From a virus, in the UHGV virus genome UHGV-0379735: a DNA stretch of 26,733 nucleotides. The stretch is one strand, 5' to 3'. A program made the position numbers. Shown in pieces: positions 24,001 to 26,733 of the stretch (the stretch's first letter is position 1; each line of letters starts with the position of its first letter).

Positions 24001-26733
24001 AAAGTTGGAGAAATTGAGCTGAGTCTTAACCGTCCAGATGCCAATAATCGTGAAAAATTCATAGCTATTCTTGGCAGCATCATCCTAAGACTCACTAAAC
24101 AAGTTGCAGGACAATAGAGATCATCGACTGAACTAATTGATTGTTTTAGCGCATAAACCTATACCACAAAATAGCCCCTTATCACGCTTCATCCTTCAAT
24201 TCTGGCGTGAACTGTATGCGCTTCACATTGGCGGGAGAGAAATACAGCCACTCTCCCGTCTCGATCGCAAGCGGCACAAAGCCGTTAACCAACTCAGGCT
24301 GAAATCGTGACGTCTTGCCCGTAAAGGTTTCGCCTGTTTGGGTGGTTAACGTGATTTGGTAGATGTCGGACATTGAGAATCTCTTTATCCGCTTGTGGGG
24401 ATATATGGTTAATTATCCTCTGTAGGGGATACTGCCATCACAATGGGGAGAATCATCGTAATGGCAATAAAAACCGCCCAGAGGCAGTTAATCTGAAAGA
24501 CCAAATTTCTTTTTTGCGTAGGATTTTAGAAGCTCTACACCAACATCTTTCAATACCGATAATGGTTGATCGCTAATTGTTTTTAGCTTCTCAAAAACAT
24601 CCTTTTGTTGAAGGGTTTCTGCAAACTCTTGGCCTGATGACGTGAGTCTTACATTGGCTGGCCATTCACGGATTTCATTAAGCCCAATAGTAAGTCCTAA
24701 TTTCTTAGGATCGCCTATTTCTAGAAAATGGTTACTAATATAACCTCTCTCAATCAATTGGTAGTAATGAAAGAGTCCTTTATCGCTGCTTATTTCGTAT
24801 CCAGCTTTTTTAAGGTCATTAGCTGATATCAATGGCCCGCCAGCCTTAATAAAGACCCCTAACATTCCCTTCAAGTATTCCAGATCGGTCTGCATAAATT
24901 ACCTCCATCCTGAGAAATAGAGATAATATTACCCTTAAAATTCTTCATTAACACTAATTTGAACACTGCTCTTTGATGTAGTCCTGCAAGTAGCCGACCT
25001 GCTTCGTCACTGTGACGATTCGCTCTCTGAGGGTGAAATAATCCCGTTCAGCGGAGTCAGTAAGTCCGGGGCTGGAAGCATCGCCCAAGCTGCCGGTGCC
25101 GGTCTTTCCGCTCGCTGGACATCGGGCATTGAAGTGCAGCCCACACTTGCCAGTGCGAACACAACGCTGCAGATCATCAAGCTGCTTTTTCGCATCAGCT
25201 AGTTCTCCGGTGTATTTAGCATCGAGTGCATCAGCATCACGCTGGCGCTGCTGCATGTCAGTAATTGCCGCGTTCGCCAGCTTCAGTTCTCTGGCATTTT
25301 TGTCGCGCTGGGCTTTGTAGGTAATGGCGTTATCACGGTAATGATTAACAGCCCATGACAGGCAGACGATGATGCAGATAACCAGAGCGGAGATAATTGC
25401 GGTTACTCTGCTCATTGCTGCCCCCACAAACAGACTTCACGCTCAATCTCACGACGGGTCATCAGCCCTTTCCATTGCTTACCGCCAGCGTATGTCCAGC
25501 GACGTAGCTGGTCACATGCGCCTTTGATATCACCCTGGTTTATTTTGCGAAGAAGCGTAGATGTTCTGAAATTGCCAGCACCCACGTTGTAGACGAACGA
25601 GTAAAGAGCGCCGCGCGTTGTTTCCGGCATATCGACTTTGATGTACGGGTTAATTTGTCTGGCGACAGTGGCAAGGTCTTTATTCAGGAGGGCTTTGCAT
25701 TCTGCTTCGGTATACGTTTTACCGGGCATGATGTCTTTTCCGGTGTGTCCGTGACATACAGTCCATACGCCAACGATATCTTCGTATGGTATGTAGCTGA
25801 CACCTTCCAGGCCATCGTCACCACTCGGACCAGTGATGAGCACAGACGCTATGGCAACAGCCCCACCACCAATAGCAGCTGCAACAGCCTTGCGTAATGA
25901 CGGCGACATTATTCACCTCTCGCAGCCTTACGCTTATCTTCTTTAATCTTGAAATAAAGATTTGTCAGATACGTCAGCAGGCCAAACAGCAGACTTCCCA
26001 GCACACCTATTGCCACCCACTGGGACGGAGAGACTTTGTCCAGCAGCTGCAGTAACCAGTATCCCGTCCCCACCGCTGACGTGGTGTATGACACACCTGT
26101 TGTGATTTTTTCCATCTGATGTATGTCTCCGTCACCGCCGACAGAAAATGAAAGTAAAGAAAAACAAAAAAGCCGCCAGTGTCACCCACTGACGGCCAAC
26201 GCCGGGAGCCGTGATTATGGCATTCAGGCTCTGCTAAAAATGCCAGATAACATTCCGGCCTCCCCTGATTCAGGTTATAAATGACACAATATCTTGACAA
26301 CATCCGTCACTGTCTGTCAGAAAATGTACTGCCATATAGAAGCAACATGTGAAGTACATCTATCCTTTTGAGCCAGCACCTCTCCACCGAAAGTCAGTGC
26401 TGGCTGTTTTTTTCCTTAATAAGGCATCTGTAACTGAAACAATCCGCATATTGATAATATATTGACAGGCATCATTGCTGTCTGTGAAAAATAAGTCTCT
26501 ACAAACATATAAGGCCTTTTAGCCAGCGTCTTCTTTTTCAGGTCAGTCGCTGGCTTTTTTTATTATGCTGCCGGTGCATTTATCTCCAGCATCAGACTTT
26601 CTATCTCAACGCCATACGCTGCATTTTTTGTAACATCCGTCAGCGTCAGCGCATTCAGTCCCAGTGTCAGACTGTCTTTTATAACCTGGAATGCCGGGCC
26701 AGCCACTCCATTCAGTTTCGGAGTAACCGTGGC

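What the first reader, a model, noticed from the sequence alone, without database searches (positions are those of the whole stretch)
24182..24895. Two further uncharacterised ORFs (135 aa low-GC and 63 aa) between Rz and the moron: possible partner genes or independent accessory cargo
Directly downstream of Rz, still on the late strand, are an AT-rich 135-aa ORF and a 63-aa ORF separated by a 114-bp gap. Neither resembles a structural or lysis protein. Together with the divergent 174-aa gene they form a three-gene accessory island of about 1.3 kb inside the late operon. The layout is compatible with a toxin/antitoxin or sensor/effector arrangement, but nothing in the sequences proves it.
Basis: inference. 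Interest (0 to 1): 0.6.

Follow-up and report, generated by a model that had tools for sequence, protein, structure and literature searches.

The report
Two unrelated phage genes, not partners
The two small ORFs after the phage lysis genes are real genes, but they are inherited separately, so this is ordinary mosaic phage cargo and not a toxin/antitoxin or sensor/effector system: one is a swappable low-GC DNA-binding-type gene and the other is a small, widely conserved beta-barrel gene of the phage backbone.

Summary
A 135-aa ORF (24488-24895, -) and a 63-aa ORF (24182-24373, -) lie 114 bp apart between Rz and a divergent 174-aa gene. Both are real genes under purifying selection.

They are not a functional pair. 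p135 is a low-GC (38%) winged-helix protein of the uncharacterised DUF2513 lineage. It ends in an intrinsic terminator and is one of many alternative cargo genes in the lysis-to-terminase slot. p63 has backbone composition (51% GC). It is a five-strand Sm/SH3-like barrel with a variable acidic tail and sits in front of the terminase genes in hundreds of enterobacterial prophages, behind a conserved structured leader.

- Only 2 of 80 p63 loci carry p135.
- About two thirds of p135 loci lack p63, and 12 more keep intact p135 beside a truncated p63.
- p174 homologues at 59% identity or less lack p63.

The 174-aa gene has an invariant RNxRSH HEPN motif and a weak profile match to HepS, a solo abortive-infection nuclease that needs no partner.

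Verdict: new members of known, uncharacterised families. The three-gene block is a recent lineage-specific linkage in E. coli P22-like prophages. Biochemical functions remain inferred.

The parts
24488..24895 (-). p135: 135-aa DUF2513-like winged-helix protein, a low-GC cargo (moron-type) gene
24901..24906 (-). Shine-Dalgarno GGAGGT, 5 nt upstream of the p135 ATG
   Evidence: Read directly from the sequence.
24463..24489 (-). Intrinsic terminator (AACTGCC-TCTG-GGCGGTT plus T-run) overlapping the p135 stop codon
   Evidence: Found by the terminator scan. Stem energy is -8.7 kcal/mol. 21 of 33 unique regions downstream of p135 homologues carry such a hairpin plus T-run. The same element also heads many p63 leaders that have no p135.
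24430..24469 (-). Conserved hairpin CCATTAC...GTGATGG (14-bp stem, -19.1 kcal/mol) in the p135-p63 gap
   Evidence: Inverted repeat I1; fold. It occurs upstream of p63 in about half of the p63 loci. The outer arms are conserved and three different inner stems all pair.
24385..24431 (-). Two direct copies of TATCCCC-N6-(A/C)GGATA. The proximal copy abuts the p63 ribosome-binding site (GGATAAAGAG).
   Evidence: Direct repeat D1. One or two copies are present in many p63 leaders.
24182..24373 (-). p63: 63-aa small five-strand beta-barrel protein (57-aa core plus short acidic tail), a conserved backbone gene upstream of the terminase genes
23593..24117 (+). Context: p174, a low-GC divergent gene and candidate solo HEPN (HepS-like) nuclease
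   Evidence: RNxRSH is invariant in the family. The family profile hits PDB 9oij HepS at E 2e-4. HepS is described as a single-protein abortive-infection system in PMC13043305.
24954..25427 (-). Context: Rz spanin (with Rz1 embedded at 25007-25195), the left border of the cargo slot
   Evidence: Pfam Phage_lysis E 3.6e-37. ORFs.
23038..23565 (-). Context: small terminase subunit, the right border of the region
   Evidence: Pfam Terminase_2 E 3.5e-39.

Best explanation
The interval holds two unrelated, independently inherited genes of a P22-like E. coli prophage, placed side by side by modular recombination. (1) p135 is a self-contained low-GC cargo cassette: a strong SD, then a DUF2513-type winged-helix protein with a conserved C-terminal amphipathic helix, then an intrinsic terminator. 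It sits in the variable slot between Rz and the conserved p63 leader. By inference it acts as a dimeric sequence-specific DNA-binding regulator that benefits the lysogen or phage; it is not a toxin or antitoxin. (2) p63 is a backbone late gene. It encodes a cytoplasmic Sm/SH3-like five-strand barrel with an acidic tail and is transcribed by read-through of the upstream terminator. By inference it binds a nucleic acid or a protein partner through the barrel and tail. It is dispensable or decaying in E. coli lineages. (3) The divergent p174 is a separate low-GC insertion, a HepS-like solo HEPN candidate that needs neither neighbour. Shown here: gene reality, folds, family links, separability, and the terminator and hairpin between the genes. 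Inferred: DNA binding by p135, ligand binding by p63, and expression timing.
For: Separability. Of 80 p63-seeded viral loci, 2 have p135 and 4 have p174. Of 60 p135-seeded loci, about 39 lack p63. Twelve E. coli loci keep a 99-100% intact p135 next to a 37-aa p63 remnant. Near-identical p135 alleles occur with p63 (L029) and without it (L028, L030). E. coli EC931 has p174 plus p63 carrying a nonsense codon at W42, and KilA-N plus a 68-aa gene in place of p135. p174 homologues at 74% identity or more have p63 next to them; those at 59, 58, 54, 45 and 31% identity do not. Position. p135 homologues always lie between the lysis genes and the terminase genes, next to at least 5 terminase types. p63 lies upstream of at least 3 terminase types. 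Composition. p135 and p174 have GC 0.38; p63 has 0.51, like Rz. Transcriptional separation. A terminator and a -19 kcal/mol hairpin occupy the 114-bp gap, and 21 of 33 p135 homologues end in a terminator. No hits were found in PADLOC or NCBIfam, and no TA domain was found in Pfam. HepS works alone (PMC13043305).
Against: The exact arrangement Rz-p135-p63-p174-TerS, with identical p63 and p135 alleles and 99-100% identical p174, recurs in at least 8 distinct E. coli contigs that differ in their Q, holin and lysozyme modules. The block is therefore stably co-inherited in this lineage, and a lineage-specific interaction cannot be excluded. Every p174 homologue at 74% identity or more sits beside p63. 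No biochemical function is demonstrated for either protein. The scan found no promoter for p135 on the - strand, so its status as a moron with its own expression is incomplete. The top-80 sample of p63 loci is ranked by similarity to the query and is not random.
Confidence: 0.72

Rival explanations
1. The three genes form one accessory defence module. p174 would be the HEPN effector, p135 the winged-helix sensor, regulator or antitoxin, and p63 an adaptor or second antitoxin.
For: The three genes are contiguous and recur as an identical block in at least 8 E. coli prophage contexts. p174 has a HEPN RNxRSH motif. From general knowledge, HEPN toxins are often paired with neutralising partners, and winged-helix proteins are common antitoxins or regulators. 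p174 at 74% identity or more always neighbours p63.
Against: Each gene is found without the others in most lineages. p63 is truncated in lineages that retain intact p135 or intact p174. p135 and p63 are separated by a terminator. p63 is convergent to p174, not co-transcribed with it. There are no PADLOC hits. The nearest characterised relative of p174, HepS, is autonomous and is kept inactive without a partner (PMC13043305).
Confidence: 0.08
2. p63 is a packaging accessory factor that works with the terminase or at the packaging site. Its fixed place just upstream of the small terminase gene would reflect that role.
For: p63 is the last late gene before TerS in most of the 80 loci examined, and it is the last gene before the genome end in Erwinia phage vB_EhrS_49 and Enterobacter phage CobraSix. 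It is under very strong purifying selection. Small barrels often bind nucleic acids.
Against: p63 precedes at least three unrelated terminase small-subunit types. It is absent from P22, Sf6 and most phages with the same Terminase_2/Terminase_3/P22-portal module; only 13 phage records match. It is truncated in two E. coli prophage lineages whose terminase genes are intact. Cargo such as p174 can be inserted between it and TerS.
Confidence: 0.12
3. p135 is a prophage-expressed anti-phage or superinfection-exclusion moron, not a plain transcription regulator.
For: It has moron anatomy: low GC, its own SD and terminator, and presence/absence polymorphism in a known accessory slot. It neighbours a HEPN defence candidate. 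The HepS paper notes that accessory slots of lambdoid prophages often hold defence genes.
Against: There is no PADLOC match and no enzymatic or effector domain; the protein is only a winged helix plus helices. No promoter was detected. DUF2513 has no reported function; the literature search returned one irrelevant paper.
Confidence: 0.15

Closest known systems
Pfam DUF2513 (PF10711) winged-helix proteins of phages and bacteria; related family YjcQ (PF09639)
   Same: The winged-helix fold is shared. The p135 family profile aligns over its full length, including the C-terminal helix, to the Escherichia phage Chlobot protein (98% probability, E 9e-14). That protein scores 42.5 bits on DUF2513, above the 29.6-bit cut-off. 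16 of 36 family members hit DUF2513 at E<0.01.
   Different: The window protein itself scores only 15.4 bits, below the curated cut-off. This subfamily is fixed in the lysis-to-terminase slot, whereas the Chlobot relative lies in the early region near excisionase and integrase. DUF2513 has no known function.
Morons of lambdoid phages (as defined by Juhala, Hendrix and colleagues; from my own knowledge)
   Same: p135 is an extra gene with deviant composition, present or absent among close relatives, followed by an intrinsic terminator, and located between late-gene modules.
   Different: No convincing own promoter was found. The terminator may belong to the conserved junction and p63 leader rather than to the cassette itself, because it also occurs after other cargo genes.
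DUF903 lipoproteins (YgdI/YgdR type; PDB 3bdu) and Sm/Hfq-like barrels, including the Rho inhibitor YaeO/Rof
   Different: p63 has no signal peptide, lipobox or cysteine. It has no N-terminal Sm helix and no Pfam match of its own. It has a variable acidic C-terminal tail.
HepS, the solo HEPN abortive-infection tRNase of Salmonella prophage Gifsy-1 (PDB 9oij; PMC13043305). This comparison is for the neighbouring p174, not for the two ORFs of the finding.
   Same: Both are prophage accessory genes of about 170-210 aa with a canonical RNxxxH motif. The p174 profile matches HepS across the motif region at E 2e-4. HepS has no partner gene.
   Different: The match covers only 56 residues. [quoted passage not shown] Structure, oligomeric state, target and trigger of p174 were not tested.
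Type II toxin-antitoxin pairs
   Same: Two small adjacent genes on one strand in a mobile element.
   Different: There is no conserved co-occurrence. The genes are 114 bp apart with a terminator between them, and neither has a toxin or antitoxin domain.

Membership tests
DUF2513 (PF10711) | Score at or above the Pfam gathering threshold (29.6 bits) | tested here: not met
   The window p135 scores 15.4 bits, E 0.025. The five family members scanned singly score 19.4 bits or less, or give no hit.
DUF2513 (PF10711) | Demonstrable homology to a bona fide member | tested here: met
   The Chlobot protein scores 42.5 bits over model positions 1-100 of 100. hhalign of the p135 family against it gives 98.1% probability, E 9e-14, over 128 columns.
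DUF2513 (PF10711) | Winged-helix-turn-helix fold | tested here: met
Type II toxin-antitoxin pair (p135 + p63) | The two genes co-occur as a conserved pair across lineages | tested here: not met
   2 of 80 p63 loci have p135. About 39 of 60 p135 loci lack p63, and 12 more hold only a truncated p63.
Type II toxin-antitoxin pair (p135 + p63) | Co-transcribed, closely spaced or overlapping genes | tested here: not met
   The gap is 114 bp and holds an intrinsic terminator and a -19 kcal/mol hairpin.
Type II toxin-antitoxin pair (p135 + p63) | A recognisable toxin or antitoxin domain | tested here: not met
   Pfam, NCBIfam and PADLOC give no such hit.
Type II toxin-antitoxin pair (p135 + p63) | Toxicity of one product neutralised by the other | not testable with these tools
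   This needs expression experiments.
Moron (lambdoid phage accessory cassette), p135 | Deviant base composition and presence/absence among close relatives | tested here: met
   GC is 0.38 against about 0.51 in the flanking genes. p135 is absent in EC931-type prophages that share 96.6% identical flanking DNA.
Moron (lambdoid phage accessory cassette), p135 | Own transcription terminator | tested here: met
   (21 of 33 homologues).
Moron (lambdoid phage accessory cassette), p135 | Own promoter active in the lysogen | tested here: inconclusive
   The scan finds no - strand promoter. Reading by eye gives only a weak TTAATG-17-TATTAT in the 58-bp Rz-p135 spacer. Expression data are needed.
Sm/Hfq-like proteins, p63 | Five-strand bent barrel | tested here: met
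Sm/Hfq-like proteins, p63 | N-terminal helix and Sm1/Sm2 sequence motifs (profile match) | tested here: not met
   The model has no helix. There is no LSM or Hfq Pfam hit.
DUF903 lipoproteins, p63 | Signal peptide with lipobox cysteine | tested here: not met
   The sequence starts MSDIYQITL and contains no cysteine.
DUF903 lipoproteins, p63 | Fold similarity | tested here: met
HepS-like solo HEPN (neighbouring p174) | Conserved Rx4-6H motif | tested here: met
   R96-N-V-R-S-H101 is invariant across 12 family members down to 37% identity.
HepS-like solo HEPN (neighbouring p174) | Full-length homology or fold match to HepS; tetramer; anticodon nuclease; tail-tip trigger | tested here: inconclusive
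   Only a 56-residue profile match at E 2e-4 was obtained.

The most novel reading that the evidence does not exclude
p63 and its conserved structured leader (terminator, CCATTAC...GTAATGG hairpin with co-varying inner stems, and TATCCCC-N6-GGATA repeats over the RBS) could form an RNA-protein regulatory unit. In this reading an Sm-like phage protein binds its own or a neighbouring late mRNA, or a host factor such as Rho, to set the timing or level of terminase expression at the lysis-packaging junction. This would be a previously undescribed late-gene control element shared by hundreds of enterobacterial prophages.
Probability: 0.08. Interest if true: 0.55.

Novelty: new member of a known kind. 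Interest (0 to 1): 0.25.

Why it matters
The result removes a false lead: this is not a new TA or defence operon. It also gives a clearer map of the lysis-to-terminase junction of P22-like and lambdoid enterobacterial prophages, which holds two cargo slots on either side of a conserved small gene and its structured leader. That map helps in reading accessory genes at this hotspot, including the adjacent HepS-like HEPN candidate, which is the more promising defence lead. p63 is a cheap experimental target. It is 57 core residues long, very strongly conserved (dN/dS 0.03), has no known function, and is present in hundreds of prophages of clinically relevant Enterobacter, Citrobacter and Klebsiella.

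Tried and rejected
- PADLOC and NCBIfam scans of all three proteins gave no hits.
- An Rfam scan of 23000-25500 at E up to 1 gave nothing, so the leader hairpin is not a described RNA family.
- Profile searches of PDB sequences with the p135 and p63 families gave only chance-level hits.
- A Foldseek search of p63 against viral structures (BFVD) returned only uncharacterised small barrels, none at E 0.001 or better.
- The afdb50 fold library was not available.
- A literature search for DUF2513 found one irrelevant paper.
- tblastn of the HepS motif fragment against the phage collection found nothing, so I could not build a HepS family profile for a full-length comparison with p174.
- The idea that p63 is a non-coding artefact or a shadow ORF was rejected on dN/dS and on protein-level conservation down to 29-48% identity.
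- The idea that the terminator is private to the p135 cassette was weakened, because the same terminator-plus-hairpin heads p63 leaders after unrelated upstream genes.
- The apparent p174-p63 linkage (6 of 7 loci) was followed up and found to hold only for p174 homologues at 74% identity or more.

Full report
**Observation**

The window carries a P22-like late region on the minus strand. In order it reads holin, lysozyme, Rz/Rz1, a 135-aa ORF (24488-24895), a 114-bp gap, a 63-aa ORF (24182-24373), a divergent 174-aa ORF on the plus strand (23593-24117), then TerS, TerL and a P22-type portal.

p135 has GC 0.38 (GC3 0.33) and p174 has GC 0.38 (GC3 0.28). p63 has GC 0.51 (GC3 0.64), indistinguishable from Rz (0.53 / 0.58) and the terminase genes. 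So the 'island' is really two low-GC insertions on either side of a gene with backbone composition.

**Are they genes?**

Yes, both are.
- p135 has 44 homologue clusters in Enterobacterales, matches PHROG 585 at E 1e-26, and has dN/dS 0.04-0.09 against 87-90% identical homologues.
- p63 has 273 clusters, matches PHROG 6581 at E 2e-31, and has relatives on 426 viral contigs. The family median dN/dS is 0.03 at dS about 0.4.
- An exhaustive profile search of 1.84 billion representatives found only 73 p63 relatives, many of them fragments. The family is therefore narrow but real.

**What p135 is**

The window protein scores below the Pfam cut-off for DUF2513 (15.4 against 29.6 bits). However, 16 of 36 family members hit DUF2513 at E<0.01. 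The family profile also aligns end to end, at 98% probability and E 9e-14, with the Escherichia phage Chlobot protein, which is a bona fide DUF2513 member at 42.5 bits. p135 is therefore a divergent member of an uncharacterised winged-helix family. The literature search found nothing on its function.

**What p63 is**

p63 has no signal peptide and no cysteine, so it is a cytoplasmic protein with that fold and not a DUF903 lipoprotein. The family consists of a 57-residue core (motifs G-x-M-x-R-x-Q-P-E-x-V-N-G-F and G-x-W-x-Y) plus a C-terminal tail that varies in length and sequence and is rich in E, D, Q, T and P. No function can be read from this. A barrel of this kind that binds a nucleic acid or a protein is the most economical inference.

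**Linkage test**

I collected 60 loci seeded on p135, 80 of the 426 available loci seeded on p63, and 7 seeded on p174, and searched all of them with all three proteins.

- Among the p63 loci, 2 of 80 carry p135 and 4 of 80 carry p174.
- Among the p135 loci, about 39 of 60 have no p63.
- Twelve p135 loci (E. coli R1-type prophages) keep p135 at 99-100% identity beside a 37-aa p63 remnant. The remnant has a 4-codon in-frame deletion, and homology stops exactly at the W42 codon.
- Near-identical p135 alleles occur with p63 (L029) and without it (L028, L030).
- E. coli EC931-type prophages have p174 plus a p63 with a nonsense codon at W42. In place of p135 they carry a KilA-N gene and a 68-aa gene.
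- The one association that looked strong was p63 beside p174 in 6 of 7 loci. I followed it to more distant p174 homologues. Those at 74% identity or more have p63 next to them. Those at 59% (Citrobacter), 58% (Salmonella phage FSL SP-016), 54%, 45% (Pantoea) and 31% (phi80 gp52) do not.

The three genes therefore share a genomic slot, not a function.

**Anatomy of the slot**

p135 homologues always lie between the lysis genes and the terminase genes, next to at least five different terminase modules, including lambda Nu1/A-type. p63 lies upstream of at least three unrelated small-terminase types, with a variable interval of about 0.7 kb between Rz and p63 that holds alternative cargo.

The 114-bp gap in the window is not empty. 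On the minus strand, in order, it holds:
- an intrinsic terminator that overlaps the p135 stop codon (24489-24472, followed by a T-run);
- a 14-bp hairpin, CCATTACGATG...CATTGTGATGG, at -19.1 kcal/mol (24430-24469);
- two copies of TATCCCC-N6-GGATA, the second of which abuts the p63 ribosome-binding site.

This same leader precedes p63 in many loci where the upstream gene is unrelated to p135. The hairpin occurs in three versions that share the outer arms CATTAC/GTAATG but have different inner stems, and all three pair. Terminator-like hairpins follow 21 of 33 distinct p135 homologues.

This layout fits a conserved junction at which cargo is exchanged by recombination between the end of Rz and the terminator/p63 leader. 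In a lysogen, transcription coming from cargo genes would stop before the late genes. During lytic growth, Q-modified polymerase reads through; that step is inferred from established lambdoid biology. phi80 has an annotated terminator at the equivalent place after Rz.

**State of p63 in the window**

The window allele is intact but atypical. It differs from the family consensus at four columns that are at least 90% conserved (M21T, T37I, D49N, V53I). Its dN/dS against relatives is about 0.18, compared with 0.03 within the family. Its closest E. coli relatives are truncated. This suggests relaxed constraint in E. coli P22-like prophages. That in turn argues against an essential role and against a role as the antidote to a toxic neighbour.

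**The neighbouring p174**

Its family has an invariant N-x-x-R-N-x-R-S-H-Q-I-D-N block, which is a canonical HEPN Rx4H motif. The family profile hits the PDB entry for HepS (9oij) at E 2e-4 across that region, and the H105A mutant entry confirms that the aligned histidine is the catalytic one. HepS is a prophage-encoded single-protein abortive-infection tRNase with no partner gene (PMC13043305). This is a lead and not a membership claim, because only 56 residues align. It does give a partner-free precedent for the one gene in the block that looks like an effector.

**Lineage-specific block**

The exact arrangement, with identical p63 and p135 alleles and 99-100% identical p174, recurs in at least 8 distinct E. 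coli contigs that differ in their antiterminator, holin and lysozyme modules. The block is thus a recently formed unit that is stably inherited within this lineage. That fits close physical linkage (1.3 kb) and does not by itself indicate interaction. It is nevertheless the main reason I keep a small probability on the module hypothesis.

**Verdict**

The 'partner genes' reading is not supported, and the 'independent cargo' reading is supported for p135 (and p174), while p63 is a backbone gene. Both proteins are new members of known but uncharacterised families (DUF2513 / PHROG 585 and PHROG 6581). Interest is low to moderate. The most interesting leftovers are the conserved structured leader of p63 and the HepS-like gene next door.

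Noticed in passing
window 23593-24117 (+): The divergent 174-aa gene has an invariant HEPN RNxRSH motif. Its family profile hits PDB 9oij HepS (the solo HEPN abortive-infection tRNase of Gifsy-1) at E 2e-4. Homologues, including phi80 gp52 at 31% identity, sit on the strand opposite the late genes in the lysis-to-terminase or lysis-to-cos interval of several phages.
   Followed up: partly
window 24430-24469 (-), and p63 leaders in L063-L142: A conserved hairpin lies upstream of p63. The outer arms CCATTAC/GTAATGG are kept, and three different inner stems (CATGGG.., GAAGCTCTTC.., AAGCTCATC..) all pair. 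It has no Rfam match and its function is unknown. It could be an RNA processing or stability element, a protein-binding palindrome, or a recombination boundary.
   Followed up: partly
window 24385-24403 and 24413-24431 (-): Two direct copies of TATCCCC-N6-GGATA, each a small inverted repeat, lie 28 bp apart. The proximal copy overlaps the p63 ribosome-binding site. One or two copies occur in many p63 leaders. This could be an operator or a translational control element.
   Followed up: no
L001 4625-4813 (E. coli EC931) and L002 4002-4112 (E. coli R1); also L007-L015, L032-L033, L070, L074, L077: p63 is a pseudogene in two E. coli prophage lineages. One has a nonsense codon at W42 (41-aa product). 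The other is a 37-aa remnant whose homology ends exactly at the W42 codon, where a different right-hand module begins. PGAP annotates no CDS at either place.
   Followed up: yes
L002 3638-3910 (+) and the same slot in L007-L015: In R1-type prophages the position held by p174 in the window is occupied by a different opposite-strand gene of 90-105 aa. I read it as hydrophobic from its sequence; this was not tested. The p63-to-TerS gap therefore looks like a second cargo slot with alternative occupants.
   Followed up: no
window 24954-25427 (-): The mechanical ORF for Rz starts at a GTG (157 aa), but homologues and gene calls in identical contigs start 4 codons later at an ATG (153 aa, MSRVTAIIS...).
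   Followed up: no
window 24907-24953 (-), the Rz-p135 spacer: A short conserved block, GGGTAAnnTTATCTC, contains the palindrome TAATATTA. It lies upstream of p135 in the window and in the 87-90% identical homologues (L016, L019, L020). It could be a -10 region or an autoregulatory operator for the winged-helix protein.
   Followed up: no
L153 3234-3719 (Enterobacter phage CobraSix, COBRASIX_85): The p63 homologue lies inside a longer annotated CDS (about 161 aa) at the very end of the genome record. This is either an over-extended start call or an N-terminally extended variant.
   Followed up: no
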